20,000 nt of DNA from an uncultured virus (IMG/VR IMGVR_UViG_3300021959_000013) (Duplodnaviria; Heunggongvirae; Uroviricota; Caudoviricetes). Position numbers and translations under genes: made by a program. How positions within the stretch are numbered: the first letter of the stretch is position 1; the number at the start of each line of letters is the position of its first letter. Below the pieces are notes generated by a model that made no database searches, was not told the DNA's origin, and saw only the letters and a list, made by a program, of their open reading frames with translations. The stretch is taken from IMG/VR virus record IMGVR_UViG_3300021959_000013; one strand, given 5' to 3'. Below, piece after piece: positions 1 to 20,000 of this stretch.

Positions 1-3000
1 TATAGGACTGGTGCTATCAGAGTAACAAAACAAGGTACAGCATTAACTCAAGGATTGGCCGCTGCAGATTTTAAAGTTCCTAACTATGCTTTAAAAGTAA
101 CACTAAATGGTTCACCTACAATACATTCATCTTTTGTAGAAAATGCAACTCTTACTCAGTCAGGTGGATTCTCTGGTGTATTATTATCAGCAGATTCTAG
201 TATATTAAGATTTAAATCTACTAACGGTGTATCATTTAACACTGGCCAAAATTTAACTCTTGGTAGTAATAGTATTGTTGCAGCAAGAATATCATCTCAA
301 AATACAATCGATGCTGGTCATGGTACATTAATAGAATTAATAACAGGCGCAACATCAGGTCATGTTATTGTAGTAGATTCAACAAGTTTAGTAGATGCAG
401 TTAACGAATTACAAGACGATGTAGGTGTCGTAGAAAATTTAACAACAAGCGCAGGTAGTTTAACTCTTGCAGTTAATGAACATGATGCAGAGCTTGGAAC
501 AATTACATCTGGAGCAATGGGAACATCAGCTTCAACTGTAAGTACAGCAATTGCAGAACACGAAGGTCAAATAGGTAATATGTCCTTAACTGGTTTATCA
601 GCTACAGATTTATCTGCAGGATTAAGAGAACTTAGAACTGAATTAGGTAATCATGCTTCACTTGATACAAACGTAAAAACTTCAGCTGTTGTTGCAATTA
701 ACGAATTAGAAACTGCAATCAGAGGAAGTGCTAGTAATTATACACTAAGTACAGCAGCAAGTAATTTAGTAGCAGCAATCAACGAATTAGACGCTTTACA
801 AGGTAACGTTGATATAAGCGCTATTGCTTCTACAGTTACTGCAGCTTTAGCTCAATTACATACAGAAATAGGTGATGTTAATATTACCACAATTGCTTCA
901 GGTAATAATAGTATTACTGGAGCTTTATCTCAATTACATACAGAATTAGGAAGCGCTACTTTAGCAACAAGTTCAAATACTCATACAGGTGCTATTAACG
1001 AATTGCATGGAGAAATAAATTCAAACGATACTGATATAGCTACAATTAATACTAAACTTGGTACAATTACAGCAGGCGCATTTGGAACAACAGCTTCAAC
1101 AGTAAGTACTGCAATTAACGAATTACATACTGATGTCGATGCAAGATTATTCTTAACATCTGGTTCAGAACAAACCGTTAATTCAGACGTAAAAATAGGT
1201 AGTGGAAAAACTCTTGATTTATCAGATGGTACATTATTATTATCTAGTGGAGGAGCAGGTTCGGTTGCAAGTTTAGGTTCAGCTTTTGTTCAATTAGATG
1301 CTAACTTAACTTCATCTCCAATGGGATTAAGAGTAGATAGAGACCATATTACTCCATCCGGTTCTATGACTAACCATGATGTAGAATTACAATGGGATGA
1401 AACACAAGTAAGTTCAAATGCTAAAAGAGCATGGAGATTGAAAGGAATGGCAGCAAACGGTTCTGCAAATACTGCAGATATCGTAACATTCTATAATGCT
1501 GAAGATTTAGTTCATGCAAATACAATAGCTGGAACAAATGGAATAAAAGCTACGTGGAATGGTGGAACTGAAGATTTTGATTTTACTTTAACAGCTGACC
1601 CAGAAATTACTTTAGGCGGAGATTTAAGTGGAGCAGCAACTTTAACAAATTTAGGTGATGCCACATTAACAGCAACTATCGTAGCAGGGTCTGTAGAAAA
1701 TAGTATGTTGGCTTCAAATGCAGTTACTAATGTAAAGATTGCAGATTCAACTATTGCAAATGCTAAATTAGCAAATAAAGGAATAAGTATCGATGCTGAT
1801 TCAGGCACAACTCATCTTATTAATTTAGGTGAAACACTAACAGTAACTGGCCAGTCAGGAGAAGTAGATACTACTATTTCAAATAATACTCTTACAATTG
1901 GATTACCAAGTAATGTCACAATAGGAAATAACTTAATTGTTACTGGTGACTTAACAGTTCAAGGTACAAATACAATATTAAATACATCAACACTAGAAGT
2001 AGAAGATACTTTAATACTTGCCGGTAGCAATTTAGGTTCAACCGAACCATCAACTGGCGGATTCGGTCTTGAAACAAAAGTTTTTGCAGGAGTTCATAGT
2101 AATGCTGCTGCTGGAGTAACAGGCGCTCACTCATTAGTATATAACTTTGCGACTGACCAATGGGAAGCTGATGGTAACCAAATATTAGATACTGTTAATA
2201 GTTTAATTACTCCACAAATAAAAACAAATAATGGAACTTCTGGTAATTTAACACCAACTGATTTAACAGGTACAAGAGATTTAGACTTTATTGCGGGTTC
2301 TGGTATTACAATTGCTGGTGCTTTAAATAGTACAGATATTGATATTACAATTACAAACTCAGATAAAGGTTCATCACAAACATTCTATAAAACATTTACA
2401 ACAGACGCTGGTTCCAATGTAGTTGCTAGCGCCAATAATGATTCAATTGAAATAGAAGGTGGTACAGGATTAACTACTACAGGTTCTGCAGATAAGGTTT
2501 CAATAAAATTAGATAACACTGCAGTAACTCCAAATAGTTATGGTAGTGGTTCAGCTATTCCAACATTTACTGTAGATGCTCAAGGCCGTTTAACAGCCGC
2601 AGGTAGTGTTTCAGTTGATACTTACAGTGGATGGAATTTAACTGTAGGCGGAGTTGCAAGAGGTTTAATATCAGAAGATGAAATTGTTTCATTTACTGGT
2701 GGAAATGCTATTGATGTAGCTTACAGTGCTACAAATAATAACATAACGTTTAATCATGCTGATACATCAGGTGCAGCCAATGTAGATAATAATGGTACTA
2801 ATTTTGTACAAGATATGACTTTTGATGCGTATGGTCATGTTCAAAGCGTGACTTCAGCTGGATTTACATTAGGTAATGGAACATTAACAGTTCAGGGTAC
2901 TGGAGTCCTAGGTGGAACAGGAACATTTACAGCTAACCAATCTACAGCTGGTACAATATCAATTACACATGATGCTGTAAGTAAATCAAGTACTACAAGT

Positions 3001-3909
3001 ACAGCTACTCCTGGATATGGCTCAACATTTACAGCAATTGATTCAATTACAACAAGTGCTGAAGGTCATGTCACTGCAGTTAATACAAAAACCGTTACAA
3101 TTCCTGCTTCTGATAATACAAATACTCAATTAAGTGTTGCACAAGTAAGAGCAGCAGTAGAGGCTGCAAGTGATTCAAATGTATTTACTGATGCAGACCA
3201 TACTAAATTAAATGGTGTTGCAGCAGGCGCAACAGCTACTAACGCTACTGACCAAAATTTTACAACCACATTAAAGAATAAATTAGATGGTATAGCAGCA
3301 GGTGCAACAGCTACTAACGCTACTGAACAGAATTTTACAACTGTTTTAAAAAATAAATTAGATGGTATAGCAGCAAGTGCAACGAATACAGCTGCACCTC
3401 ATTATACTAGTGCAATTGGTTCTTCTGATGTTACAACTGCATTAGGATTTACACCATATAATTCAACTAACCCAAGTGGTTATACAACATATAGTGCTAA
3501 CCAAACTTTAAATAATAACTCTAATGTTCACTTTGAAGGTTTAATGGTTGGGCAAACAAGTTCTGCTACTGCAAATACCATACGTTGTGTTGGTGATGTT
3601 GTTGCTTTCTATTCATCAGATGAAAGATTAAAAGATAATATTACACCAATCGAAAATTCATTAGAAAAGGTTGGCCAACTTAAAGGTTATGAGTTTGATT
3701 GGAACGATAATCAAGAAGTTTACGAAGGACATGATGTTGGTGTTATTGCTCAAGAAGTAGAAAAAGTAGTACCAGAGATTGTCGAAACAAGAAAACATGA
3801 TGGCTATAAAGCTGTTAAATACGAAAAATTAGTTCCTTTATTAATAAATGCAATTAATGAATTAAAAGCTGAAATTGAAGAACTAAAAAGTATAAATAAG
3901 AAGGTATAG
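1..3909 (+). CDS. Long tail fibre / whisker-like structural protein with C-terminal Peptidase_S74 intramolecular chaperone (5'-truncated)
   Basis: Frame 1 is open from base 1 (YRTGAIRVTKQGTALTQGLAAADF...), so the TTG at 55 is probably not the true start. About 10 helical A(I/V)NELxxxxG repeats, then G/S/T-rich beta repeats, then C-terminal SDERLKDNI...GVIAQEVEKVVPEIV...VKYEKLVPLLINAINEL, typical of an S74 chaperone. Confidence 0.85.
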   Translation, partial: YRTGAIRVTKQGTALTQGLAAADFKVPNYALKVTLNGSPTIHSSFVENATLTQSGGFSGVLLSADSSILRFKSTNGVSFNTGQNLTLGSNSIVAARISSQNTIDAGHGTLIELITGATSGHVIVVDSTSLVDAVNELQDDVGVVENLTTSAGSLTLAVNEHDAELGTITSGAMGTSASTVSTAIAEHEGQIGNMSLTGLSATDLSAGLRELRTELGNHASLDTNVKTSAVVAINELETAIRGSASNYTLSTAASNLVAAINELDALQGNVDISAIASTVTAALAQLHTEIGDVNITTIASGNNSITGALSQLHTELGSATLATSSNTHTGAINELHGEINSNDTDIATINTKLGTITAGAFGTTASTVSTAINELHTDVDARLFLTSGSEQTVNSDVKIGSGKTLDLSDGTLLLSSGGAGSVASLGSAFVQLDANLTSSPMGLRVDRDHITPSGSMTNHDVELQWDETQVSSNAKRAWRLKGMAANGSANTADIVTFYNAEDLVHANTIAGTNGIKATWNGGTEDFDFTLTADPEITLGGDLSGAATLTNLGDATLTATIVAGSVENSMLASNAVTNVKIADSTIANAKLANKGISIDADSGTTHLINLGETLTVTGQSGEVDTTISNNTLTIGLPSNVTIGNNLIVTGDLTVQGTNTILNTSTLEVEDTLILAGSNLGSTEPSTGGFGLETKVFAGVHSNAAAGVTGAHSLVYNFATDQWEADGNQILDTVNSLITPQIKTNNGTSGNLTPTDLTGTRDLDFIAGSGITIAGALNSTDIDITITNSDKGSSQTFYKTFTTDAGSNVVASANNDSIEIEGGTGLTTTGSADKVSIKLDNTAVTPNSYGSGSAIPTFTVDAQGRLTAAGSVSVDTYSGWNLTVGGVARGLISEDEIVSFTGGNAIDVAYSATNNNITFNHADTSGAANVDNNGTNFVQDMTFDAYGHVQSVTSAGFTLGNGTLTVQGTGVLGGTGTFTANQSTAGTISITHDAVSKSSTTSTATPGYGSTFTAIDSITTSAEGHVTAVNTKTVTIPASDNTNTQLSVAQVRAAVEAASDSNVFTDADHTKLNGVAAGATATNATDQNFTTTLKNKLDGIAAGATATNATEQNFTTVLKNKLDGIAASATNTAAPHYTSAIGSSDVTTALGFTPYNSTNPSGYTTYSANQTLNNNSNVHFEGLMVGQTSSATANTIRCVGDVVAFYSSDERLKDNITPIENSLEKVGQLKGYEFDWNDNQEVYEGHDVGVIAQEVEKVVPEIVETRKHDGYKAVKYEKLVPLLINAINELKAEIEELKSINKKV
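385..1140 (+). repeat. About 10 degenerate coiled-coil repeats (xxxA[IV]NE[LH]xx[ED][LI]G) in ORF1
   Basis: SLVDAVNELQDDVG, SLTLAVNEHDAELG, TVSTAIAEHEGQIG, DLSAGLRELRTELG, SAVVAINELETAIRG, NLVAAINELDALQG, TVTAALAQLHTEIG, SITGALSQLHTELG, THTGAINELHGEIN, TVSTAINELHTDVD. Confidence 0.85.
3205..3384 (+). repeat. In-frame 75-bp (25-aa) tandem repeat, about 2.4 copies
   Basis: KLNGVAAGATATNATDQNFTTTLKN / KLDGIAAGATATNATEQNFTTVLKN / KLDGIAASAT; units start with AAATTA at 3205, 3280 and 3355. Confidence 0.95.
3616..3906 (+). other. Peptidase_S74 autocleaving chaperone domain (ORF1)
   Basis: S-D-x-R-L-K motif (SDERLK), GVIAQEV, terminal coiled coil. Confidence 0.9.
3891..3898 (+). promoter_or_regulatory. 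T4-type late promoter (gp55 sigma -10 box)
   Basis: Exact TATAAATA in the last codons of ORF1, 16 nt upstream of ATG 3915, followed by SD-like AGAAGGT. Confidence 0.8.
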
Positions 3910-3914
3910 ATTAA

Positions 3915-4253
3915 ATGGCAATATACTCTAACATAGTAATCGATCAAGGAGCTGATTACGCAGCTTCAATTGATGTAACTGATGCCGATGGAGATGCTTT
4001 AAACTTAACAGGTCATACAGGAAAAGGCCAAATAAGAAAAACATACTCATCAACAACTGCTGTAGATTTTGCAGTATCAGTAGCAAATCCGGCTACTACG
4101 GGAGTATTAAACATTAGTTTGACAAACGTTCAAACTAATGCTATGAAAGCCGGTCGTTATGTTTATGATATAGAAATAACTGCTGGGTCAGGTACAAAAA
4201 CAAGAGTTTTAGAAGGACAATTAGAAATTACACCGGGAGTTACGCAAACATAA
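3915..4253 (+). CDS. Small beta-sandwich virion structural / fibre-attachment adaptor protein
   Basis: 112 aa. The pattern NIVIDQGADY...LNLTGHTGKGQIRK...GVLNISLT..QT..MKAGRYVYDIEI...TRVLEGQLEITPGV resembles a widespread phage structural family (BppU N-terminal / LtfC-like), recognised by eye. Confidence 0.7.
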   Translation: MAIYSNIVIDQGADYAASIDVTDADGDALNLTGHTGKGQIRKTYSSTTAVDFAVSVANPATTGVLNISLTNVQTNAMKAGRYVYDIEITAGSGTKTRVLEGQLEITPGVTQT

Positions 4254-4468
4254 TGGCGAATATAAAAGCTAAAATAAAACGAAACCCAAATAAAATAGTA
4301 GCGCAAACCTTAAAAGTAGGTAACGTTGCTTTAACAGATTTAACAGATGTGAATGCTCAGGGATTCTCCGATGGTGGTGTTTTGATATATAATGGTTCAA
4401 CAACAAAATGGGATGCAACAACAACAATTGGAAACATCAATACTAATATAACTGGAGGCACATACTAG
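4253..4468 (+). CDS. Small structural/linker protein ending in GGTY
   Basis: 71 aa; TAATG overlap with the previous gene; LTDLTDVN...DGGVLIYNGSTTKW fibre-type motif; C-terminus ITGGTY. Confidence 0.75.
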   Translation: MANIKAKIKRNPNKIVAQTLKVGNVALTDLTDVNAQGFSDGGVLIYNGSTTKWDATTTIGNINTNITGGTY

Positions 4469-5955
4469 TGGCTAATTTAACAAGAATAAAAATATTAACT
4501 ACGGGCTCAACAACCACTGCTCCGGCTAATATCAAAACAGGTGAGCTGGCATACTCTTATGTAACCGGTACTCAAGCAAATAACGGTGATAGACTTTATG
4601 TAGGTACAGGCGCAGAATCAGGTGGGGTTGCATCTTCTGTAGACCTAATAGGCGGTAAGTATTTTACATCATTATTAGACCATGTTCATGGAACAACAAC
4701 AGCCAGTAGCGCTTTAATTGTTGATGCTAATAAGCATGTATCTGATTTAAATATCGGAAGTTTAGCACTTGAAGCTTCAGGTGGTTCTGGACAAGTTGTA
4801 ACAAGTATTGTTACTTCAATGCCAGGTTCTCCAACTGATGCTCAGTTAATTACAGCACAAGGTGTTAAAGAATTTGTTGATACATTAGACTTATCAGTTT
4901 CTGGTGATAGTGGTTCAATTGCAGTAGATTTGTTTACTGGTGCTGCTTCTAACGAAGAAACATTAGGTATTATAGGTACTGCTAACGAAATTGAAACTGC
5001 AGCATCAGGTAATAATGTCCAAATAGGTTTACCGAATAATGTAACAATTACTGGTGAATTAGATGTTGCAACTTTAGATGTCGCTACATCAGCCGCAATC
5101 GCATCTGCTACAATCGAAGATTTAACAAACAATAGAGTTGTTATAGCAGGTACTGGTGGAGAACTTGAAGATGACGCTAACTTTACTTTTGACGGTACAA
5201 GTTTAAATGTTGGTGGAGCAAACTTCTCAGTTGCTCATGCATCTGGTAATACAGTTGTTGGTGGAACATTACAAGTAAACGGAAATGTTACTTTAGGCAA
5301 TCAATCATCTGATACAGTTCAAACACAAGGTAATTTAACAGTTGGTGGAAACTTAACTGTACAAGGAACAACAACATCAGTTAACTCAACAGAAACAACA
5401 TTAACTGACCCAATGATAGAATTGGCTAAAGATACATCATCAGCCGATGGTCTAGACAGAGGAGTAAGATTTAAATGGCATAATGGTTCAGCAGTTAAAG
5501 ATGGTTTCTTTGGTTTTGATATACAAACACAAAGATTCTCATTTACTCCAGATGAAGATTTAAGTGGAGGCGACGATGCTTCATCACCTTGGGGTGACTT
5601 AAACATTGGAGACATTTATGGTACTGGTGCTACACTCGACAATGTAAGAGTCGGTGTTACTGCAGCAGGAGAAATAGATACAAGTTCAGGCAATTTAACT
5701 CTTGACTCAGCTGGTGGTACAGTTGTTGTTGATGATAATTTAAATGTCACTGGAACAGTTACGTTAACAAATGATTTGGCAGTTACCGAGGGTGGTACTG
5801 GAGTTTCAGCATTTACAGACAATGGTGTATTATATGGAGATGGGACTAACGCTTTAGACGTTACAGCAGCTTCAAGTGCAAATGGTTCTATATTACAAGC
5901 TAACTCTGGAGCAGCTCCTGCGTTCTCTAATATCATTGATGGCGGAACATATTAA
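4468..5955 (+). CDS. Fibre/structural protein with N-terminal 'GELA' (Mtd/hyaluronidase N-terminal-like) domain, ending in IDGGTY
   Basis: 495 aa; GTG start overlapping the TAG of the previous gene; SD GGAGG at 4454-4458; RIKI...P.NIKTGELAYSY...RLYVG; GNLTVQGTTTSVNST module. Confidence 0.8.
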   Translation: MANLTRIKILTTGSTTTAPANIKTGELAYSYVTGTQANNGDRLYVGTGAESGGVASSVDLIGGKYFTSLLDHVHGTTTASSALIVDANKHVSDLNIGSLALEASGGSGQVVTSIVTSMPGSPTDAQLITAQGVKEFVDTLDLSVSGDSGSIAVDLFTGAASNEETLGIIGTANEIETAASGNNVQIGLPNNVTITGELDVATLDVATSAAIASATIEDLTNNRVVIAGTGGELEDDANFTFDGTSLNVGGANFSVAHASGNTVVGGTLQVNGNVTLGNQSSDTVQTQGNLTVGGNLTVQGTTTSVNSTETTLTDPMIELAKDTSSADGLDRGVRFKWHNGSAVKDGFFGFDIQTQRFSFTPDEDLSGGDDASSPWGDLNIGDIYGTGATLDNVRVGVTAAGEIDTSSGNLTLDSAGGTVVVDDNLNVTGTVTLTNDLAVTEGGTGVSAFTDNGVLYGDGTNALDVTAASSANGSILQANSGAAPAFSNIIDGGTY

Positions 5956-5963
5956 TATAAATA
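5956..5963 (+). promoter_or_regulatory. T4-type late promoter
   Basis: Exact TATAAATA immediately after the TAA at 5953-5955. Confidence 0.8.
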
Positions 5964-6007
5964 TATTATAATATAGTTTATAAACTTCCTTATATAAGGA
6001 TTGAAAA

Positions 6008-6013
6008 AAGGAG
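6008..6013 (+). promoter_or_regulatory. Shine-Dalgarno sequence for the TTG start at 6020
   Basis: AAGGAG with a 6-nt spacer to TTG. Confidence 0.8.
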
Positions 6014-6019
6014 CCAAAA

Positions 6020-9000
6020 TTGGCAAGAAATACGAACATTAAGTTAAGGCGTTCGGCAACAGCCGCTGCTATTCCAACAACAAGTAATTTAGACCTAGGT
6101 GAGTTAGCGCTTAATACTAACGACGGTAAGTTATATATGAAAACTACCGAGGGTAGTTTAGATAGCGTTATTCAGGTCGGCTCCGCAACAGATACTTATT
6201 TTAAAATAAGAAAAACTGTCAATCAAAATTTTACTGTCACAGTTGCTTCAAAAACTACAGACCACGTTTATAATGGCTTAGGTTCAAGCAGTGGTTATAT
6301 TATTAATGGTATTGAATCACCTCATTTAAATTTTGTACCAGGTAATTCATATCAATTTGACCAATCAGACGGCTCAAACTCAGGCCATCCTTTAAGATTC
6401 TATTACGATGCTGCAAAAACGACAGCATATACAGCAGGCGTAACAACAAACGGAACTGCTGGTAGTTCAGGAGCATATACAAAAATTGTTCCAACTAAAG
6501 ATACTCCAATGGTTCTTTATTACCAATGTACTGCTCATGGATATATGGGTGGTTCAGTCAGTTTTGCTACAAGAAATTTAACTGGATTTGATACTGATGA
6601 ACTAGGAGAAGGTTCAAGTAATTTATACTTCACGAACGCACGAGCGCGCGGAGCAATATCAGTTACAGATTCTGGTGGAGATGGTTCTCTTGCTTATAAT
6701 AGTTCAACAGGTGTTATAACTTATACAGGGCCAAGTGCATCGGAAGTAAGAGCTCATTTTTCTGCAGGAACTGGTATAGGAATATCAGGTGGTACAATAT
6801 CCACATCAATAACACAATATACAGATGCTCTTGCAAGGGCAGCAATATCAGTCACTGATTCCGGTGGAGATGGAAGTTTAGCATACAATAATTCAACTGG
6901 TGTTATAACATATACCGGTCCTTCTGCCGCTGAGGTAAGAGCTCATTTATCAGCTGGAACTGGTGTAACATATTCAGGTGGTCAAATAAGTATTGGCCAG
7001 GCAGTTGCAACAACTTCAAATGTACAATTTAATAACGTACAGGTAGATGGAACATTAACATCAGACGATATCACATCAACAAATATAGCTGCTACTGGTA
7101 ATTTAACTGTATCTGGTAATTTAACAGTTAATGGAACTACTACAACTTTAAATACTGCAACGCTTGATGTTGAAGATAAAAATATAACTCTGAATAAAGG
7201 TTCAGGAGATACATCAGGTTCAGCAAATGGTGCTGGTATTACAATACAAGATGCCGTTAATAGTTCAACAGATGCCACTATATTATGGAATACAACTAGC
7301 GATGCATTTGATTTTTCACACCCATTAACAATTACAAGTACAACAACTAATGATACTTTATTATTAACAACAACTGAAGCTTCAAGTTCTGCAGCTCCAG
7401 TATTAACCTTTAAAAGAAATTCTGGTTCACCGGCTGATGCAGATTATTTAGGACAACTTAAATTCAAAGGTGAAAACGATGCTGACCAAGAAGTTGTATA
7501 TGCAAAAGTCACAGCTAAAATACAAGACGCTTCTGATGGAAGTGAAGATGGTTTATTAGAATTTGCAAATAGAAAAGCTGGTTCAAATGTTATTACAGCT
7601 AGATTGCGTTCTGATTCATTACAATTATTAAATGGTACGAGCCTAGTAGTTGCAGGATTAACTTACCCGACAAGTGATGGCACAAGTGGCCAGGCTCTCG
7701 TAACTGATGGTTCAGGTAATTTATCATTTAGTACAATATCTAGCGGTGGTGGAACAGTTACTGAAGCATTTAAAAATATTGCTGTAAGTGGTCAAACAAA
7801 TATTGTTGCTGACGCGGCGACAGATACACTTACATTTGCAGCAGGTTCTGGTATTCAATTAACAACTACTCCAGGAACTGATACTCTTACAATTACATCA
7901 ACAGCTACAGGTTCGGTTACTGAAGCATTTAAAACTATTGCAGTTTCAGGCCAAACAAACATAGTTGCTGACTCAGCTACAGACACACTTACATTAGCTG
8001 CTGGTAGTAATATGACTATTACTCAGGATGCTAGTACAGATACAATTACATTCGCTTCATCAGGTGGTGGTGGCGGTCAAAGTGCATTATATAAAGAATA
8101 TGTATATACACCAGGAAGTAATACAACAACCTTTAGTGGTAGTGATGCAAACGGAAGTACATTATCATATACAGTTGGTTATATAAGCGTATATTTAAAT
8201 GGTGTATTATTAAAACCTACAACTGACTATACAGCAACAAATGGAACTTCTGTAGTATTAGTTAATACTGCGGTAAGCGGTGATGTAATACAAATTGCCA
8301 CATTCGTACAAATTGTAGGCTCTGGTGATTCAGCAATAACTGCAGTAACATATAGTGGTTCAGGTACTATAACACTTAGTGCTAATCCAAATCATGAAAA
8401 CAATACACAACTTTACATCGATGGTGTTTATCAAAATAAAGATACTTATTCAGTCAGTGGTACAACATTAACATTTTCTACTACACCACCAGCCGGGGCA
8501 TTAGTTGAAGTTGTTATTGGAAGCAGAAATGTAACTGTCGATGATGTAGAAGGATTAACAGTCAATGGTGATTTAACTGTTGATACAGATGTATTGTATG
8601 TAGATTCTACAAATAATAAAGTTGGTATAGGAACGACTAATCCAGGAGAACTATTAGAAGTTAATAGTGATGGCTCTGATGCTGATGGTGCAGTATTACT
8701 CTTAAAGCATGCAAACAATAATACTACTGATGTAATTTCTACAATAAAATTTGCAAATAATGCAGGTTCAGTAGCTAATATTCAAGCTGGAACTTTAGGT
8801 TCTAACAGCACTGGATATATTACTTTTAATACAGATATTACTAATACTTCAGCTGAAAGAATGCGAATTCATAGTAATGGTTATGTTGGTATCGGAACGG
8901 CTTCACCAACTGCTACTTTAACAGTTGGCGCTTTATCTAGCGGTCAAACAGGTAATGTAGTTATTAATAACGAAGGCGGTAATATAGCAACCTTAGAAGT

Positions 9001-10285
9001 TTTATCAAGAACGAATAGGTCAGTTTTAAAAATAGCTGATAATGACACTATTGGTTATATGAGTGCTGAAAATGGCTTATTAAGTATAGGTAGAAATTCA
9101 GGACTTAATGCAGCTAACATTAATATTGATAGTTCAAACAGGGTGGGTATAGGTACAACTTCGCCTGCGGTTGGTTTAGATGTTGGTTCTAAAACAGATG
9201 CAATAAGAGTTCCAAATGGAACAACAGGTCAAAGACCAACTGCAGCTTTAGGACAATTAAGATATAATACAACAACATCAGAATTTGAAGGATATGCTGC
9301 TGGTGCATGGGGTAAAATAGGCGGTGGCGGAGATTCATTCGGAACCATTGCTGTTGCAGGCCAAACAAATATAGTTGCAGAACAAGAAAATGATACACTT
9401 ACAATAGTAGGGGCAGGTGGTATTACAGCCACAACAACTGCAGGGACAGATACACTTACATTAACTGGCCAAACTTCAGTCAATCCATTTACAACAGATT
9501 TCTTTACAACTGCAAATAATTCAACCACAGCATTTACCTTAAGTGTTACGCCACCAAGTGAAGATAACTTAATAGTATTTATGGAAGGTGTATATCAAAA
9601 TAAAAATTCATATACATTAAGTGGTACAACATTAACATTAGATGCAGCTCCAGCTTCTGGTACAGAAGTAGTAGTTCATATAATACAAAATGGTGTTGTA
9701 GGAGCTGGACATGTTGTTGATGAATTTACTGGAAATGGTAGCACAGCAGCTTATACATTATCAGTTACTCCTTTAAATGAAAATAATACTTTCGTATATT
9801 TAGATGGTGTGTATCAAGAAAAATCAACATATAGCGTAAGTGGTAACACATTAACATTTCCAGCAAATATAACAAGTGGACATAGTATAGAAGTTATCAC
9901 ACCACAACTTACAGAAATAAATCAACCGGCCGTTGGGTCGATTGATAATGTTAATATGTTTAGTGGCTTACAAGCTTCAGAGATAACATCAACAACTGTA
10001 GCATCGACAAGTGCAACGACAATTGCAACACATGCTGTAGCTACATATAGGTCAGTTAAATATAATGTACAAATTACCCAAGGCAGTAATTATCATACTA
10101 CTGAAATAAATGTTTTGCATAATGGTACTACAGCTTATATAACAGAATATGGAACAATTTTTAGTGGTTCTTCTTTAGCAACATTTGATGCTACAATTAG
10201 TAGTGGTAATTTATTATTACAAATAACTATGGGAAGTGCAAATTCAGCAACAATTAAGGTAGTTTCAACGGCAATACCTGTATAA
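6020..10285 (+). CDS. Large multidomain virion fibre/scaffold protein (GELA N-domain, cupredoxin-like domain, internal repeats, four small beta-sandwich domains, conserved-looking C-domain)
   Basis: 1421 aa; TTG start with a good SD; IKLRRS...LDLGELALNTNDGKLY; GHP...YYQCTAHGYMG; VPNGTTGQRP...GQLRYNTTTSEFEGY; four (V/L)Yx[DN]GVxQ/L...Y.VSGTTLTF-type domains; C-terminal YRSVKYNVQI...EINVLHNGTTAYITEYG. Confidence 0.85.
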   Translation: MARNTNIKLRRSATAAAIPTTSNLDLGELALNTNDGKLYMKTTEGSLDSVIQVGSATDTYFKIRKTVNQNFTVTVASKTTDHVYNGLGSSSGYIINGIESPHLNFVPGNSYQFDQSDGSNSGHPLRFYYDAAKTTAYTAGVTTNGTAGSSGAYTKIVPTKDTPMVLYYQCTAHGYMGGSVSFATRNLTGFDTDELGEGSSNLYFTNARARGAISVTDSGGDGSLAYNSSTGVITYTGPSASEVRAHFSAGTGIGISGGTISTSITQYTDALARAAISVTDSGGDGSLAYNNSTGVITYTGPSAAEVRAHLSAGTGVTYSGGQISIGQAVATTSNVQFNNVQVDGTLTSDDITSTNIAATGNLTVSGNLTVNGTTTTLNTATLDVEDKNITLNKGSGDTSGSANGAGITIQDAVNSSTDATILWNTTSDAFDFSHPLTITSTTTNDTLLLTTTEASSSAAPVLTFKRNSGSPADADYLGQLKFKGENDADQEVVYAKVTAKIQDASDGSEDGLLEFANRKAGSNVITARLRSDSLQLLNGTSLVVAGLTYPTSDGTSGQALVTDGSGNLSFSTISSGGGTVTEAFKNIAVSGQTNIVADAATDTLTFAAGSGIQLTTTPGTDTLTITSTATGSVTEAFKTIAVSGQTNIVADSATDTLTLAAGSNMTITQDASTDTITFASSGGGGGQSALYKEYVYTPGSNTTTFSGSDANGSTLSYTVGYISVYLNGVLLKPTTDYTATNGTSVVLVNTAVSGDVIQIATFVQIVGSGDSAITAVTYSGSGTITLSANPNHENNTQLYIDGVYQNKDTYSVSGTTLTFSTTPPAGALVEVVIGSRNVTVDDVEGLTVNGDLTVDTDVLYVDSTNNKVGIGTTNPGELLEVNSDGSDADGAVLLLKHANNNTTDVISTIKFANNAGSVANIQAGTLGSNSTGYITFNTDITNTSAERMRIHSNGYVGIGTASPTATLTVGALSSGQTGNVVINNEGGNIATLEVLSRTNRSVLKIADNDTIGYMSAENGLLSIGRNSGLNAANINIDSSNRVGIGTTSPAVGLDVGSKTDAIRVPNGTTGQRPTAALGQLRYNTTTSEFEGYAAGAWGKIGGGGDSFGTIAVAGQTNIVAEQENDTLTIVGAGGITATTTAGTDTLTLTGQTSVNPFTTDFFTTANNSTTAFTLSVTPPSEDNLIVFMEGVYQNKNSYTLSGTTLTLDAAPASGTEVVVHIIQNGVVGAGHVVDEFTGNGSTAAYTLSVTPLNENNTFVYLDGVYQEKSTYSVSGNTLTFPANITSGHSIEVITPQLTEINQPAVGSIDNVNMFSGLQASEITSTTVASTSATTIATHAVATYRSVKYNVQITQGSNYHTTEINVLHNGTTAYITEYGTIFSGSSLATFDATISSGNLLLQITMGSANSATIKVVSTAIPV
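6653..6982 (+). repeat. Direct duplication with 189-bp (63-aa) period in ORF5
   Basis: AISVTDSGGDGSLAYNSSTGVITYTGPSASEVRAHFSAGTG (from 6653) versus AISVTDSGGDGSLAYNNSTGVITYTGPSAAEVRAHLSAGTG (from 6842); most differences are synonymous. Confidence 0.95.
7757..8062 (+). repeat. Direct duplication with 159-bp (53-aa) period in ORF5; third copy near 9332-9470
   Basis: VTEAFKNIAVSGQTNIVADAATDTLTFAAGS (7757) / VTEAFKTIAVSGQTNIVADSATDTLTLAAGS (7916) / DSFGTIAVAGQTNIVAEQENDTLTIVGAG. Confidence 0.9.
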
Positions 10286-10288
10286 ATA
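10281..10288 (+). promoter_or_regulatory. T4-type late promoter
   Basis: Exact TATAAATA overlapping the last codon and stop (GTA TAA) of ORF5. Confidence 0.8.
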
Positions 10289-10320
10289 GAATAATAAAAC
10301 GATGGAGAGTGAAATCGTAA

Positions 10321-12870
10321 ATGGCAAATAAAAATTTCGAAATAAAAAACGGTTTAACAGTAGCAGGTACTGAGCGTATCACTGCGGCTGGTGCCGGTTC
10401 ATTAACAAACCTTACATTAAGTGGAAACTTAACTGTTCAAGGTACTACTGTCACACTAGATGCTAGCACTTTACAAGTAGCAGATAAAAATATCGTTTTA
10501 AATTACCACGCATCTAATGATACCTCAAGTGCTGCCAATGGCGCAGGTATTACAATTCAAGACGCAGTTGATGGGTCAAATGACGCAACATTAACATGGG
10601 ATACCAGTCTTGATAAATTTGATTTATCGCATGGTTTACACATAGGTGATTCAGCCGCAATAGGAACTACAACAACTCCAGCTTTACAAATAGGTGGAAC
10701 AACAACATATCGTTTAGGATTATATACATCCGCTGAAGGTGGTGTTATTGAAAATAAAAATGGCGATGATGGTTTACAATTTAAAGTAAAAACTGCTGGT
10801 GAATCTATGAGAATAGATGGCGGAACAGGCAACGTTGGTATCGGAACAGCTTCTCCAGCTGCTAAACTTCATGTAGCAAATGCAGCAACAGAAGAATATA
10901 TTTTTGAAACTACAAGCAACAACACAAGGTCACAAGTAGAAGTTAAGTCAAAAGATAGTTCAGGTAATGCTGTTCAAACAAGATTATCTAGTATGGGTGA
11001 CGGTGCTTATGGAATGCTTTATACGCTTACGAATCATAATTTAACCTTTGGTACAAACAATGCTGCTCCTCAAATGAATTTAGATACTTCAGGAAAACTT
11101 GGGATTTCAACTACCGCTTCATTAAGTGGGAGTGATTATGGAATGCTTACCATTAAAAAGACTGGTAGTAATATATTTGGTGACAGTGCTATTACAATAA
11201 ATTCAGCAGACACAAACCAATCAACACTTGCATTAGGATTAACTAGTTCTCTTGCATATGTTGATTCTACAGAAAGCGGAAGTGGTACTGTATTACCTTT
11301 AGTATTTGCCACAGGTTCCGCCGAAAGAATGCGTATTAGTCCTTCCGGTGGTGTAGAAATAGGAGATGGAACAAACTATGGATATGTAAAAGTCATAAAT
11401 GATAGTGCAGTTGTACAATACTTAGATAGGCGTGGGTCAGATGGAGTTGTATTAGAAATTAGACATGCTGATTCAAAGGATGGTCAAATAAATACTCTAT
11501 CTGGAAGAATGGCAGTAGGGTCTGGTGATACAGGAATATTCTTTGATAGTACGAGAGATTGTCTTTCTCCTTTTAGTATGACATCTAATGATGGTAGAGG
11601 AGACCTTATTGATATAGGCAGAACTGGTGTAAAATTTAGGGACCTCCACCTATCAGGAACAGGGTACTTTGGAACCAGTGTACAAATAGCTGATTCTGCC
11701 AAGTTGGTAACTAAAACAACTAATGGTGAAGTAATAAGATTTGAAAGAGCAGGTGATTCGCTCAGATATTCTTCAATCCATGCAAATAGTACAGATGCTG
11801 GAGGTGCTTTTATACAATTTAAAGTACATACAGGAGCTAGTGCTACTTCACTAGCTGATGTAATGACTCTAAAGGGTAGTGGAAATGTTGGAATTGGCAC
11901 AACGACTGCAGCAGACCGCCTTCACATATCTGGTGGTAATATATTACTAGAAAATGCTTTAGAACTTAGATCGAAAGATACTGGCGGAAGTGTTAGAACA
12001 ATTACAAGAGTAAATAGCTCTAACGAATTAGAGTATGGTTGGTCAGGTGCTGGCCCAGTTAAATTCATGGGTGGTGGTTCATATACCGAGCGCATGAGAA
12101 TACACACAAATGGAAATATTGGTATTGGAACAAATGCTCCTGTATCTGAATTAGACATTTTTAATTCAACAAGTCCAACTATAAGTTTAGGCTACAATGG
12201 TGGTGGTGGAAATGGTGGAACTATAGATTGGAACTTAAACGTAGTATCAAGTCCTTTAACTGCACAAATAAAAGCAATAGATGATGGTAACTATAGAATG
12301 AATATGATATTTTCAACTAAAACATCAGCATCAGCCAGTTCTGGAATGTCAGAAAGAATGAGAATTACTAGTGCTGGAAGTTTTATAATTGGTAATACAG
12401 CTGAACCAACGGGTAGTAACGGAGGTGGTTCAGGATTTATCACAGATAGTGCAGGTAGAAAAAATCTGATATTAGCAACAACAAGTACAAGTCTTATTGA
12501 TATAGCAAACTTTAGAAACCCAAATGGTACTGTAGGAACTATAAGAACTAATGGGTCAAGTACATCATATTACACCTCATCAGACTATAGATTAAAAGAA
12601 AATGTAGTTACAGATTGGGATGCAACAACAAGATTAAAACAATTAAAACCTTCAAGGTTTAACTTTATAGCAGACGGTGATACTACTCTTGACGGTTTCT
12701 TAGCTCACGAAGTACAAGACATAGTTCCTGAAGCTACACACGGAACAAAGGATGAACTTGATAGCGATGGCAATCCTGAATATCAAGGTATCGATCACGC
12801 AAAACTTGTGCCGCTTTTAACTAAAGCACTACAAGAACTAGAAGCAAGAATAACAGATTTAGAAGGATAA
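10321..12870 (+). CDS. Tail fibre / receptor-binding protein with C-terminal Peptidase_S74 chaperone
   Basis: 849 aa; repeated ERMRI...GNVGIGT linkers; SDYRLKENV...GFLAHEVQDIVPEA...YQGIDHAKLVPLLTKALQEL (about 12580-12867). Confidence 0.88.
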   Translation: MANKNFEIKNGLTVAGTERITAAGAGSLTNLTLSGNLTVQGTTVTLDASTLQVADKNIVLNYHASNDTSSAANGAGITIQDAVDGSNDATLTWDTSLDKFDLSHGLHIGDSAAIGTTTTPALQIGGTTTYRLGLYTSAEGGVIENKNGDDGLQFKVKTAGESMRIDGGTGNVGIGTASPAAKLHVANAATEEYIFETTSNNTRSQVEVKSKDSSGNAVQTRLSSMGDGAYGMLYTLTNHNLTFGTNNAAPQMNLDTSGKLGISTTASLSGSDYGMLTIKKTGSNIFGDSAITINSADTNQSTLALGLTSSLAYVDSTESGSGTVLPLVFATGSAERMRISPSGGVEIGDGTNYGYVKVINDSAVVQYLDRRGSDGVVLEIRHADSKDGQINTLSGRMAVGSGDTGIFFDSTRDCLSPFSMTSNDGRGDLIDIGRTGVKFRDLHLSGTGYFGTSVQIADSAKLVTKTTNGEVIRFERAGDSLRYSSIHANSTDAGGAFIQFKVHTGASATSLADVMTLKGSGNVGIGTTTAADRLHISGGNILLENALELRSKDTGGSVRTITRVNSSNELEYGWSGAGPVKFMGGGSYTERMRIHTNGNIGIGTNAPVSELDIFNSTSPTISLGYNGGGGNGGTIDWNLNVVSSPLTAQIKAIDDGNYRMNMIFSTKTSASASSGMSERMRITSAGSFIIGNTAEPTGSNGGGSGFITDSAGRKNLILATTSTSLIDIANFRNPNGTVGTIRTNGSSTSYYTSSDYRLKENVVTDWDATTRLKQLKPSRFNFIADGDTTLDGFLAHEVQDIVPEATHGTKDELDSDGNPEYQGIDHAKLVPLLTKALQELEARITDLEG

Positions 12871-12873
12871 ATT

Positions 12874-15099
12874 ATGGCAACTAAAATAAAATTGATAGCA
12901 GATGATGCGATAAATGCAACTCACTTAGATTCTTCTGCGTCTCCACAATTTACAAATTTAACTCTGACTGGTAATTTAACAGTACAGGGTACAACTACTA
13001 CACTTGATACTACTAATTTACAAGTCACAGATAAAAATATAGTTTTAAACTATGGAACAGGAGATACTTCATCAGGAGTTGATGGAGCTGGTATTACAAT
13101 ACAGGATGCAGTTAATAGTTCAACTGATGCAACTATTTCATGGGTTGCTAGTAGTGATGAGTTTGCTTTTTCACACCCAGCTTCAATAGTTAATACTGTT
13201 GGTGGAGATACAGTATTAAATCTAACAGGGTCATACGGTTCAGGTAATAATGTTGCTTTTTTAGGATTTGCAAGAGTTGGTGGTGCAGTTGCAGGAGATA
13301 TTAGATATACCGATGCAACTACTGATATGGAAATTGGTACATCAACTGCTCATAAATTCTCATTAAAGACAAGCAATACAAAAAGATTAACTGTTGATTC
13401 TGCTGGTAAGGTTGGTATTGGTATTGTTGCTCCAACTACAGCTTTGCATGTTTCATCAGGTGATGGTAGTGCAGAATTAATATTACAAAGAACTGGAGCA
13501 CAAGCTTCAATATGGGGACTGAAACCATATAATGCTGATTTCTATATTAGAGAAAATGGTACAGACAGAATTACTGTTAAAGCTGGTGGTAATGTTGGAA
13601 TTGGAACGACAGACCCTGGCACTAAACTGGATATAGAGGGTGGTAGTGGTGGAGTAAGTGTTCGTGTAAAAGGTGATGTAGGTGGAGGTGCTTACTATTA
13701 TGGGTATATGTTTGATGGTACTAATGTAAGAGGAACTACTCAAACAAATATATTTTATTCTGGAAGTGCGATAGCAGCAAGTACAACAGTTGCAGAATAT
13801 GCAGGTCTAAGAATTGATGCACCTAATGTATCAGCATCAGGAGCTGTGGTTACAAACAATTATGCCATATACTCAAGCGGAACAGCACAGAAAAGTTACT
13901 TTGCAGGCAAGATTGGAATTGGTACGTCTAGTCCTAGTACTCCTTTACACGTTTATAGTAATACATCAGGAGTTATAGCCACTATATCAGGACCAAATAA
14001 TTATAACTCAGAAACAGGCATATCTTTAGCTATAGATAGAGCAAAAATATCAGGAGTTTTAAATGGAAGCGGGGGTACTCCGGGTGCTTCTTTACGTTTT
14101 CACACAATGCCTAATAGCGGAAGTTTAACAGAAAGAATGCGTATTGATTCTTCAGGAGATGTACTTATAGGGCAAACATCACAAACTGGATATGGTTTTG
14201 CACAAAAATTAGTAGTAGGTGATGGCGATAATAATGATGGTATTACTATTCAATCAGGTTCAACTCATCAAGGAAATTTAGCTTTTAATCATTCTGATGG
14301 TACGACTGCTCATGGAAGAATAAGTTATCAGCATGGTACTAACTATATGCAGTTCTTTACTAATAATACAGAAAGAATGCGTATTGATTCTTCAGGCACT
14401 GTTTATATTGGTCCAAATGGAAGTACTGCTGACCCTAGAATAACCAGACACTCAAATGGATATGATTATGTAAACAGTGGTAATAATAGGTGGTTAAAGG
14501 TAGGTGCTAGCAGCGGACACACTAATGTTGCTTTCCAAGATGGAGCGAGTGGAATCACAGTTTTTGAAACTGGTGGAACAGAGATGATGAGAATTGATAC
14601 TGACTATGTCGTACCTAAAATGAATTTTCATTTTGCTAATAATAACATTTATGCTGTATCTACCACAGGTGATGAACATTCATTATCAAATGGGGTTATG
14701 ATATTAAAACAGCAAATTACTGTCAGGGCAGGAAGTAAAATAATAGTTTGGTACGATAGTGGTCAAATACTTAATAACAATCAGGGTGGTAATGGTTCAA
14801 CTAATAGTAATCCACAAATTGCTATATATGTTGATTCAAATAGTTCAGCTCCTAGTAGAGGCTCTGCGAATATGATTAATAACAACACAGACCATGTTAT
14901 GTATCCGGCCGGGAATATAGGAAATGCTAGGGCTAAAATGCATGGTCATGGAGCAACTGGAACAATATCATCAGGGGGAACATATTACATTTATATGTAC
15001 GGTGGTTCGTACAATAATGGACAATTTACATTTAATTACCAAAACTCTTCAGGTAATACCAGAGGGTCGAGTATTATTTGGGCGGAGGTTAAAGCATAA
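12874..15099 (+). CDS. Tail fibre / receptor-binding protein without S74 domain; globular beta-rich C-terminal tip
   Basis: 741 aa; SD-like AGAAGGA upstream; N-terminal module shared with ORF5 and ORF6; ERMRIDSSG/GNVGIGT linkers; C-terminus ...SSIIWAEVKA. Confidence 0.85.
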   Translation: MATKIKLIADDAINATHLDSSASPQFTNLTLTGNLTVQGTTTTLDTTNLQVTDKNIVLNYGTGDTSSGVDGAGITIQDAVNSSTDATISWVASSDEFAFSHPASIVNTVGGDTVLNLTGSYGSGNNVAFLGFARVGGAVAGDIRYTDATTDMEIGTSTAHKFSLKTSNTKRLTVDSAGKVGIGIVAPTTALHVSSGDGSAELILQRTGAQASIWGLKPYNADFYIRENGTDRITVKAGGNVGIGTTDPGTKLDIEGGSGGVSVRVKGDVGGGAYYYGYMFDGTNVRGTTQTNIFYSGSAIAASTTVAEYAGLRIDAPNVSASGAVVTNNYAIYSSGTAQKSYFAGKIGIGTSSPSTPLHVYSNTSGVIATISGPNNYNSETGISLAIDRAKISGVLNGSGGTPGASLRFHTMPNSGSLTERMRIDSSGDVLIGQTSQTGYGFAQKLVVGDGDNNDGITIQSGSTHQGNLAFNHSDGTTAHGRISYQHGTNYMQFFTNNTERMRIDSSGTVYIGPNGSTADPRITRHSNGYDYVNSGNNRWLKVGASSGHTNVAFQDGASGITVFETGGTEMMRIDTDYVVPKMNFHFANNNIYAVSTTGDEHSLSNGVMILKQQITVRAGSKIIVWYDSGQILNNNQGGNGSTNSNPQIAIYVDSNSSAPSRGSANMINNNTDHVMYPAGNIGNARAKMHGHGATGTISSGGTYYIYMYGGSYNNGQFTFNYQNSSGNTRGSSIIWAEVKA

Positions 15100-18758: not shown

Positions 18759-20000
18759 ATGGCATATTCAAAAAATAGAAGATTAGCAGAAATAGTATCA
18801 GATACTTCAGGTAATTTATCTGTTGAAGGTCTTGTAGTACCTACACAAAGTAGTTCAGATAATGATACCTCTGCGGCTTCAACAGCATTTGTTCATGCTC
18901 ATATTGATGCAGTATTGGATAGCGCTCCTGGAACATTAAATACACTTAATGAAATTGCAGCAGCTCTTAACGATGATGCTAACTTTAACACAACAGTAAC
19001 AAATGCAATCGCAGCAAAATTACCATTGGCTGGTGGAACATTAACAGGTAATTTAACTGTTCCATATTTAGCAACTACTAGTTATATTGATTTAAACAAT
19101 AGTGGCAATAGAGGAAAAATTGGTTGGTCAGGTAATCATACATATATTGCAACAACATCTTCAGTTGGTTCAATTATTTTTAAAAATAATGTTGGTTCAA
19201 CGGCTTCACCACAAACGGGTGGAGATACCTTACTAACACTAACAGATGGTGGTAACGCTACATTTCCAGGAACTATAACATCAGCTGGTTTAAGTTCAAG
19301 TAGTTCAAATACTGGAACTAATCCTGCAGCTAATGGACATATTGCAAGTGAACTTCAGTTTTATAATGGAAGCGCTACAGACAATAATCTAAACGGCATT
19401 GGATTTTATAATTCAAATAGTGCTGTTGATGCTAGAATTGCAGGCGTACATAGAAGTCACTCTTCAAGACATGGTGAAATAGCATTTTTGATGCATGATG
19501 GTTCAGCTTTAACAGAAAGAGTTCGTTTTAATAAAGATGGCAACGTTGGAATTGGAGAAACAAATCCAAACTCTCCACTACATGTAAAAACCACAGACCA
19601 AAGTATACAAATAAGAAATACAGGAAACGCTAATGTAGGTCTTGAAATATATAGAAACAGTGATGGAGCAAAAGGTGCTTCATTTGCGTGGGGTAATGGT
19701 AACGCTAACTTAGAAATAAAAAATTACAGAAACGATGGACAAAGTACTGGGCCTTACGCAAATATAGATTTCTTTACGGGTGGCACAGACGCTGATAGTC
19801 CAGACTTTAATCCAACAAGAAGAATGAGAATTCAACAAACAGGTGAAGTTGGAATTGGACAAGATGACCCAGTTACAACTTTACACATTGGAGATGGTGC
19901 TTCTCACTATGTAAGAATAGAAAATGCAGGGAGTGGAGATATTTCGTCAGGGTATCAAATATATAGAGGAAGTTCTGTTGGAATGAGCCTTTATGATAAC
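18759..20000 (+). CDS. Further tail fibre / receptor-binding protein (3'-truncated, missing from the ORF track)
   Basis: Hand translation is open for 414 codons to the window end: MAYSKNRRLAEIVSDTSGNLSVEGLVVPTQSSSDNDTSAASTAFVHAHIDAVLDSAPGTLNTLNEIAAALNDDANFNTTVTNAIAAKLPLAGGTLTG...ERVRFNKDGNVGIGETNP...RRMRIQQTGEVGIG. Confidence 0.9.
   Translation, partial: MAYSKNRRLAEIVSDTSGNLSVEGLVVPTQSSSDNDTSAASTAFVHAHIDAVLDSAPGTLNTLNEIAAALNDDANFNTTVTNAIAAKLPLAGGTLTGNLTVPYLATTSYIDLNNSGNRGKIGWSGNHTYIATTSSVGSIIFKNNVGSTASPQTGGDTLLTLTDGGNATFPGTITSAGLSSSSSNTGTNPAANGHIASELQFYNGSATDNNLNGIGFYNSNSAVDARIAGVHRSHSSRHGEIAFLMHDGSALTERVRFNKDGNVGIGETNPNSPLHVKTTDQSIQIRNTGNANVGLEIYRNSDGAKGASFAWGNGNANLEIKNYRNDGQSTGPYANIDFFTGGTDADSPDFNPTRRMRIQQTGEVGIGQDDPVTTLHIGDGASHYVRIENAGSGDISSGYQIYRGSSVGMSLYDN

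What the first reader, a model, noticed from the sequence alone, without database searches (positions are those of the whole stretch)
3915..10360. Possible daisy-chain assembly code: C-terminal GGTY peptides always precede a 'GELA' N-terminal domain
Seen: ORF3 ends ITGGTY and ORF4 ends IDGGTY. The gene directly after each (ORF4, ORF5) starts with a homologous domain: RIKILTTGSTTTAPANIKTGELAYSY...RLYVG versus NIKLRRSATAAAIPTTSNLDLGELALNTNDGKLYMK. No other gene in the window has either feature. Inference: the GGTY tail is a plug that docks into the next protein's GELA socket, so gene order encodes a linear chain (adaptor ORF2 > ORF3 > ORF4 > scaffold ORF5 > fibres). In ORF3 the Gly-Gly codons double as the SD (GGAGG) for ORF4. 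In ORF4 they are GGC GGA with no coupled gene, which argues for selection at protein level.
Basis: partly seen in the sequence, partly recalled or inferred. Interest (0 to 1): 0.7.

Follow-up and report, generated by a model that had tools for sequence, protein, structure and literature searches.

The report
T4-type clip joints chain phage fibre
In this marine phage, neighbouring tail-fibre genes end in a short tag and the next gene starts with a matching small domain, the same pairing found where two parts of phage T4's long tail fibre join, so the proteins most likely clip together end to end into one long fibre.

Summary
Observation confirmed. ORF3 ends ITGGTY, ORF4 ends IDGGTY, and the next genes start with homologous 'GELA' domains. 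The pairing is general: IDGGT[YF]-stop genes precede a GELA gene in 65 of 122 viral cases versus 18 of 446 other genes, and in 59 of 86 versus 30 of 405 in prokaryote genomes. The peptide persists without the Shine-Dalgarno (GGAGG 13 of 117 uncoupled, 78 of 102 coupled). The GELA domain is the N-terminus of T4 gp37, and T4 gp36 ends DFGYY; gp36 is reported to bind that region (PMC3004832). Six of 14 internal GELA-like stretches follow an ID-G-like remnant. ORF5 ends in a gp9-like fold before a gp34-like start. Best reading: known T4 joint types reused in series; docking itself is inferred, since the complex prediction never ran. Gene order is a tendency, not the code: P-SSM2's second socket lies about 112 kb away. 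This scan reported the same system before on other DNA. New variant of a known kind.

The parts
3915..4253 (+). ORF2, 112 aa, LtfC-like adaptor (likely anchor for the ORF3 N-terminus; inferred)
   Evidence: phrog_3304 'L-shaped tail fiber protein assembly' E=5.7e-28; Pfam LtfC E=0.0037, below cut-off; an ORF2-like gene lies directly before the small plug gene in 77 of 79 cases
4253..4468 (+). ORF3, 71 aa linker ending in plug 1
   Evidence: no Pfam family; atlas neighbours unnamed
4448..4468 (+). Plug 1, ITGGTY-stop; the Gly-Gly codons also give GGAGG (4454-4458) 9 nt before the ORF4 start
4468..4659 (+). Socket 1: ORF4 N-terminal GELA domain, long-loop type, lacking the conserved Arg
4468..5955 (+). 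ORF4, 495 aa fibre segment with socket at the start and plug at the end
5935..5955 (+). Plug 2, IDGGTY-stop (GGC GGA, no GGAGG)
6020..6193 (+). Socket 2: ORF5 N-terminal GELA domain, short-loop type; same family as the T4 gp37 N-terminus; Mtd_N-like
6020..10285 (+). ORF5, 1421 aa fibre/scaffold with three DUF4183 stretches
9953..10285 (+). ORF5 C-terminal beta-sandwich with the fold of the T4 gp9 fibre-connector domain (third joint, socket side)
   Evidence: model pLDDT 90.3; Foldseek top hit 1qex E=4.4e-5, TM 0.74; phrog_967 in 5 of 12 members
10321..10356 (+). ORF6 N-terminal peptide KNFEIKNGL, resembling the T4 gp34 start (third joint, plug side)
   Evidence: this start follows 13 of 14 complete ORF5-like genes; aligned with T4 gp34, invariant Phe and Gly shared

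Best explanation
These genes build one jointed tail appendage from separately encoded, presumably trimeric segments. Shown from sequence: each upstream protein ends in [ILVF]-[D/N/T]-G-G-x-[YF]-stop, and its partner starts with a ~55-residue beta domain of the T4 gp37-N/Mtd_N kind. Inferred: three C-terminal peptides of the upstream trimer dock on the trimeric N-terminal cap of the next protein, joining the segments end to end as gp36 joins gp37 in T4. Proposed chain: LtfC-like ORF2 holds the ORF3 N-terminus (inferred from the DT57C LtfC/LtfA structure); ORF3 plugs into ORF4; ORF4 plugs into ORF5; the gp9-like C-terminal domain of ORF5 takes the gp34-like start of ORF6. Order comes from plug/socket flavour rather than from gene position: here joint 1 has lost both the plug Asp and the socket Arg, which would keep ORF4 from chaining onto itself (inferred from essentially one lineage).
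For: Orthologous loci: all 143 socket proteins among 804 ORFs are N-terminal; 137 have a plug gene directly upstream and 6 two genes upstream; 143 of 146 plug genes have a socket next or next but one, the other 3 have no downstream gene in the locus (these loci are related). Motif-first viral loci with a profile built only from the orthologous loci: 65 of 122 versus 18 of 446; with an iterated profile 70 of 122, plus 11 next but one. The 124 plug proteins fall into 32 groups with no BLAST link in their last 100 residues, 19 of which have a socket next (15 with the independent profile). Prokaryote genomes: 59 of 86 versus 30 of 405. Scrambled control 0 of 2. Peptide kept without GGAGG (13 of 117 with gap >15 nt, 78 of 102 coupled). 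T4: among 566 six-frame ORFs, one plug-like end (gp36) and one socket (gp37); the review PMC3004832 says trimeric gp36 binds the N-terminal region of gp37 (passages). Pelagiphage Mosig has 2 plugs and 2 sockets among 416 ORFs; P-SSM2 has 3 plug-like ends and 2 sockets among 770. Fusions: 6 of 14 internal GELA-like stretches in 150 representatives are preceded by [IVL]D[GCA] (background 3.9% per 8-residue window, P about 8e-6). ORF5 C-terminus has the gp9 fold.
Against: 41 of 122 viral plugs have no socket within two genes by the iterated profile (some are profile misses or short flanks). The largest exception group (19 proteins, mostly a 77-aa podovirus-type protein) has a socket next in 1 of 19, and a socket elsewhere in only 3 of 10 contigs searched; the 7 blanks are 15-54% complete. 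An unrelated-looking ~128-aa Clostridium protein also ends IDGGTF without a socket next. S-CBS2 has 4 sockets for 2 terminal plugs and BPP-1 has a socket (Mtd) but no terminal plug. The T4 plug differs at two of six positions (DFGYY), and my plug pattern was widened after seeing it. The fusion motif and window were also chosen after viewing; none of 120 longer homologues had an internal socket. Covariation across 199 pairs (45 effective) did not rank the Asp-Arg pair. Several lineages carry IDGGT[YF] at both joints. The Fisher tests do not correct for relatedness.
Confidence: 0.8

Rival explanations
1. The joint is real but promiscuous: any plug fits any socket, so ORF4-type proteins (socket plus plug) self-polymerise or several mounts share one fibre, and the architecture is not a fixed ORF3>ORF4>ORF5 chain.
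For: Both joints carry IDGGT[YF] in L095, L100, L111, L138 and others; G002 has two plug genes and one socket; very short proteins carry both ends (L124 84 aa, L129 73 aa).
Against: In the window's orthologues joint 1 never has Asp at -5 (0 of 54) and joint 2 always has (46 of 46), with long- versus short-loop sockets. In motif-first loci non-Asp plugs meet long-loop sockets in 12 of 15, Asp plugs in 13 of 87.
Confidence: 0.1
2. The tail is only a trimer-closing or folding element of each fibre end, and the GELA domain an independent trimerisation cap; they co-occur because fibre genes cluster.
For: The socket model's weak structural neighbours include collagen XV/XVIII trimerisation domains; fibre genes do cluster in these loci.
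Against: Other genes in the same clusters precede a socket in only 18 of 446 cases; near one-to-one genome counts; plug remnants sit directly before fused sockets.
Confidence: 0.07
3. The motif is a by-product of a Shine-Dalgarno sequence and stop-start coupling for the next gene.
For: GGAGG is strongly favoured when the next gene is coupled (78 of 102), as at ORF3/ORF4.
Against: With a gap over 15 nt the same peptide uses GGAGG in 13 of 117, close to the 10% background for a first GGA in Gly-Gly (394 of 3817). Asp, Ile and the terminal aromatic are not explained by an SD.
Confidence: 0.02

Closest known systems
Phage T4 long tail fibre, gp36-gp37 joint
   Same: gp37 starts with the same domain (E=1.9e-7 with the orthologue-only profile; single match in the genome, E=3.9e-14); gp36, the gene directly upstream, ends D-F-G-Y-Y-stop; gp36 trimers bind the gp37 N-terminal region (PMC3004832, passages).
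   Different: Used twice in series here; ORF3 and ORF4 matched no PHROG annotated as gp35 or gp36; Gly-Gly instead of Phe-Gly; the chain starts from an LtfC-like protein. No solved chain of the gp37 N-terminus was found by the profile.
Bordetella phage BPP-1 Mtd (Pfam Mtd_N, PF18454) on the Bbp9 fibre
   Same: 24 of 66 family members match Mtd_N at E<=0.1; the family profile finds Mtd at E=3.1e-4; the fibre gene bbp9 lies directly upstream.
   Different: Bbp9 has no terminal plug but two internal look-alikes (YDFG, IDYG), which would fit the two Mtd trimers per fibre cited as unpublished cryo-EM data in PMC2408619 (passages); this link is my inference. Window sockets score below the Pfam cut-off.
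T4 gp9 / gp34 N-terminus joint
   Same: ORF5's last 110 residues fold like gp9; ORF6 starts like gp34; gp34's N-terminal end attaches to gp9 (PMC3004832).
   Different: The domain sits at the far end of a 1421-aa fibre instead of on the baseplate; sequence support against gp9 itself is weak (hhalign probability 3%, E=0.015; no PDB profile hit).
T5/DT57C LtfC collar with LtfA
   Same: ORF2 matches phrog_3304; LtfC takes N-terminal strands of the fibre by beta-augmentation (PMC10713586, passages).
   Different: Here a 71-aa linker rather than a long fibre follows; the ORF2-ORF3 contact and the site on the virion were not tested.
JBD30 baseplate hub C-terminus docking into the gp54 trimer
   Same: A C-terminus docks into the N-terminal part of a trimeric receptor-binding protein (PMC11445458, section 14 part 1); a 373-residue JBD30 baseplate chain, which I take to be gp54, was the top but weak structural hit (Z 3.4, rmsd 4.4, 50 aligned).
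   Different: The receiving site there is an alpha-helical bundle; an analogy of principle only.

Membership tests
T4 gp36-gp37 type joint | N-terminal domain homologous to the gp37 N-terminus | tested here: met
T4 gp36-gp37 type joint | Upstream protein ends in D-x-G-x-aromatic-stop as gp36 does | tested here: met
   ORF4 IDGGTY versus gp36 QDFGYY; ORF3 has Thr for Asp, so it meets the pattern only in part
T4 gp36-gp37 type joint | Trimers bound end to end in the virion | not tested
   the complex prediction was never accepted by the queue; virion data are outside these tools
T4 long tail fibre (gp34-35-36-37 with gp38) | gp35 knee and gp36 body in T4 order | tested here: not met
   ORF2-ORF5 match no PHROG annotated as gp35 or gp36 at E<=0.001; only the joint elements are shared
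Pfam Mtd_N (PF18454) | Score at or above the gathering cut-off of 26.3 bits | tested here: not met
   ORF5 15.7 bits, E=0.015; ORF4 no match at E<=0.1; relatives reach E=1.3e-16
Pfam Mtd_N (PF18454) | Fold of the Mtd N-terminal cap | tested here: inconclusive
   model pLDDT 87.9; Foldseek no match at E<=0.001, HylP E=0.72, Mtd E=2.2; 1yu0 Z 2.4, rmsd 3.0, 47 aligned
T4 gp9-gp34 type joint | gp9-like beta-sandwich | tested here: met
   (1qex, E=4.4e-5, TM 0.74)
T4 gp9-gp34 type joint | Partner starts with a gp34-like N-terminal peptide | tested here: inconclusive
   short motif only: Phe and Gly invariant in 12 of 12 aligned rows including gp34
LtfC collar proteins | Profile match above the curated cut-off | tested here: inconclusive
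   PHROG E=5.7e-28 but Pfam 18.3 bits against 27; no PDB sequence match

The most novel reading that the evidence does not exclude
The [D/N/T]-x-G-x-[YF] tail and the GELA cap form one of the commonest protein connectors of tailed phages (32,201 clusters at 50% identity carry the cap). It would unify T4 gp36-gp37, Mtd on BPP-1 and fibres of marine T4-like, podo- and siphoviruses and Bacillota prophages. It would also come in orthogonal flavours (Asp/Arg versus Thr/no Arg, long versus short loop) that act as a real assembly code, fixing the order and number of segments independently of gene position.
Probability: 0.35. Interest if true: 0.75.

Novelty: new variant of a known kind. Interest (0 to 1): 0.5.

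Why it matters
It names the residues that probably join gp36 to gp37 in T4, a joint for which I found no solved chain and no residue-level description in the papers searched. It gives a specific, cheap test (delete five or six residues). It lets fibre architecture be read from gene ends across tens of thousands of unannotated phage proteins, including partners encoded far apart. If the flavours are orthogonal, a six-residue tag with a 55-residue cap is a compact connector set for building ordered protein fibres. The principle (fibres joined end to end from separate genes) is known from T4, and this scan has reported the same system several times, which limits surprise.

Tried and rejected
No whole genome is held for the window. 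PDB sequence searches with ORF5-N, ORF4, ORF2, the ORF5 C-terminus and two profiles gave nothing significant. Fold searches with the socket monomer gave only weak matches. No internal sockets in 120 longer homologues. Mutual-information analysis of plug against socket columns gave top pairs I could not interpret. Two planned scans (T4-type DFGYY-stop; the motif without a stop) could not be run as patterns; a scrambled control was run instead. Literature searches listed no paper describing the motif; 'daisy chain' with tail fiber and phage, and the literal motifs, gave 0 papers. The library lacks most subscription papers. For the 2026 T4 cryo-EM preprint 10.64898/2026.03.06.709160 I saw passages and section 6: it calls the distal rod (gp36)3-(gp37)3 and lists a map of it, without describing this interface; its extended data, which I did not see, may show the joint. 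PMC9206674 (passages), PMC12143355 (passages) and 10.64898/2026.05.12.724579 (passages) did not describe the pairing. Rejected: pure Shine-Dalgarno origin; strict gene-order code.
Full report
Setting. The window is a run of same-strand tail-fibre genes at about 36% G+C, with S74 chaperone domains in three ORFs and PHROG tail-fibre matches. In related contigs the gene order ORF2-like, small linker, ORF4-like, ORF5-like is kept. The cultured pelagiphage Mosig, filed under Kyanoviridae, has the same order. I infer a marine T4-like phage; no genome of its own is held.

Observation. All stated features are present. The two N-terminal domains are only weakly alike pairwise (E=0.005). A profile seeded from them and their orthologues found 143 proteins among 804 ORFs in the window and 79 loci, every match N-terminal.

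Is the pairing more than synteny? In those orthologous loci 137 of 143 sockets have a plug gene directly upstream and 6 have it two genes upstream, but the loci are kin. I therefore started from the motif. After removing duplicates and 5 plugs with no next gene, 65 of 122 plugs are followed by a socket under the orthologue-only profile, against 18 of 446 other genes. Under a profile iterated on these loci it is 70 of 122, plus 11 next but one, against 33 of 452. The 124 plug proteins form 32 groups unlinked by BLAST over their last 100 residues with the motif removed; 19 groups have a socket next, 15 by the independent profile. In prokaryote genomes, 124 matches minus 31 not at an ORF end and 7 duplicates left 86, of which 59 precede a socket, against 30 of 405 other genes. 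Several of the 9 such loci I listed sit among genes that look like prophage tail genes by eye. A scrambled pattern gave 11 matches in a complete scan, 9 not at ORF ends, 0 of 2 before a socket. The cap is very widespread: 32,201 clusters at E<=0.001.

Protein or RNA selection? GGAGG occurs in 78 of 102 plugs with a coupled next gene, 8 of 27 with a gap of 4-15 nt and 13 of 117 with a gap over 15 nt (6 odd cases set aside); background is 394 of 3817.

What the socket is. 24 of 66 diverse members match Pfam Mtd_N at E<=0.1; ORF5 scores 15.7 bits, under the 26.3 cut-off. The model is a small beta domain (pLDDT 87.9) with only weak structural matches to HylP, Mtd and collagen trimerisation domains. 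gp37 residues 1-47 match the orthologue-only profile at E=1.9e-7, and gp36, directly upstream, ends VQDFGYY-stop. Genome-wide, T4 has one plug-like end and one socket among 566 six-frame ORFs (pattern widened after seeing gp36). PMC3004832 (passages) states that trimeric gp36 binds the N-terminal region of gp37. So the one case where the partners are known agrees with the prediction. BPP-1 Mtd matches the family profile at E=3.1e-4. Its upstream fibre has no terminal plug but two internal look-alikes, and PMC2408619 (passages) cites two Mtd trimers per fibre; connecting these is inference.

Fusion evidence. Among 150 representatives, 14 internal GELA-like stretches were found; 6 are directly preceded by [IVL]D[GCA] and one by ISG. 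The background gives P about 8e-6 (motif and window chosen after viewing). I read these as plug and socket genes fused with loss of the terminal aromatic and the start, which puts the two ends side by side. None of 120 longer homologues from another search had an internal socket.

Is gene order the code? Only loosely. In P-SSM2 a 75-aa plug gene precedes a 527-aa socket-plus-plug gene, and the second socket starts about 112 kb further on; one more plug-like end there is probably chance. Mosig has 2 and 2, with an unrelated gene inserted at the second joint. S-CBS2 has 2 terminal plugs, one near-terminal look-alike and 4 sockets. G002 has 2 plugs and 1 socket. For the 77-aa podovirus-type plug protein a socket was found elsewhere in 3 of 10 contigs; the 7 blanks are 15-54% complete. 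For 10 other exceptions, 6 contigs held a socket, in two cases only the plug protein's own. No locus showed more than two consecutive joints within the flanks fetched.

Is there specificity? In the orthologous loci joint 1 has no Asp at -5 (0 of 54) and a long-loop socket; joint 2 has Asp (46 of 46) and a short loop (46 of 46). In motif-first loci non-Asp plugs go with long loops in 12 of 15 and Asp plugs in 13 of 87. In the window's lineage the joint-1 socket has also lost the conserved Arg: 32 of 33 T/I/S/G plugs pair with non-K/R sockets, and 126 of 135 D/E plugs with K/R. That suggests an Asp-Arg contact, but the 32 weigh as about one sequence, and covariation did not rank the pair. Some lineages use the same plug at both joints.

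The other links. ORF2 matches the LtfC-type PHROG and precedes the small plug gene in 77 of 79 cases. In DT57C, LtfC takes N-terminal strands of the fibre (PMC10713586, passages); a like contact with ORF3 is inference. 13 of 14 complete ORF5-like genes are followed by an F-x-[VI]-K-[NH]-G start that aligns with the gp34 start. How ORF7, ORF9 and ORF11 attach is unexplained.

Verdict. The feature is real and general. It works most likely like the T4 gp36-gp37 joint, reused twice in series and followed by a gp9/gp34-type joint (confidence 0.8; docking geometry, stoichiometry and site on the virion inferred). It is not a T4 long tail fibre, and the window's caps are not formal Mtd_N members. I found no paper naming the motif pair (searches listed under Tried and rejected), but the scan has noted it before on other DNA. 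New variant of a known kind; interest 0.5.

Noticed in passing
L048, L051, L053, L055-L064, L090, L102, L117, L121, L123, L141; Mosig L220:11995-12726; P-SSM2 L219:14995-17194: A second recurring C-terminal motif, A-[IL]-A-x-A-[IL]-[AV]-[LF]-G(G)-stop, usually followed by a ~110-119 aa gene starting MASxFKNAG, MANxF or MAxPNIVNV; a candidate further joint type, often ending the socket-bearing protein. In about 12 other loci the same tail precedes a ~226-272 aa gene instead.
   Followed up: partly
L084, L116, L125, L132, L135, L136, L150, L157 and others; G002: A 66-84 aa protein starting MSNY/MxDY and ending IDGGT[YF] in podovirus-like contigs, with no socket next door; G002 also has a 509-aa plug protein before its single socket gene, so one fibre may be mounted at two sites.
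   Followed up: partly
L205:4599-6125 (BPP-1 bbp9): Two internal D-[FY]-G sites (YDFG, IDYG) in the fibre gene upstream of mtd; candidate side sockets for the two Mtd trimers per fibre.
   Followed up: partly
L285, L292, L301, L313, L321, L322 and others (Acholeplasmataceae/Bacilli-labelled genomes): Conserved cassette: gene ending DGGEF, a 257-aa gene without socket, a 283-aa socket-plus-plug gene, a 226-aa socket gene. The first plug skips one gene.
   Followed up: partly
L289, L293, L334, L354, L360, L373, L393, L398 (Clostridium-type genomes): A ~128-aa protein with an N-terminal hydrophobic segment ends IDGGTF before a membrane-protein-like gene, with no socket next: apparently an independent use of the same tail. 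Its resemblance to NusG domain II proteins is recalled, not tested.
   Followed up: no
L060, L061, L063, L064, L048, L050, L090, L121, L202; Mosig L220:11786-11995: Small genes of 46-78 aa are inserted between plug gene and socket gene at the second joint.
   Followed up: no
window 12874-12920, 15491-15530, 18759-18800: The further fibre genes start with their own short N-terminal motifs (MATKIKLIAD, MALTKV, MAYSKNRRLA); the first two types recur in related loci. They may dock on ORF5's DUF4183 repeats; untested.
   Followed up: no
window 1-3909: ORF1 is open at the window's start, carries repeated AINEL-type segments and a C-terminal S74 domain; orthologues start with MAxxxETR-like motifs directly after a large gene and a ~70-aa gene.
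   Followed up: no
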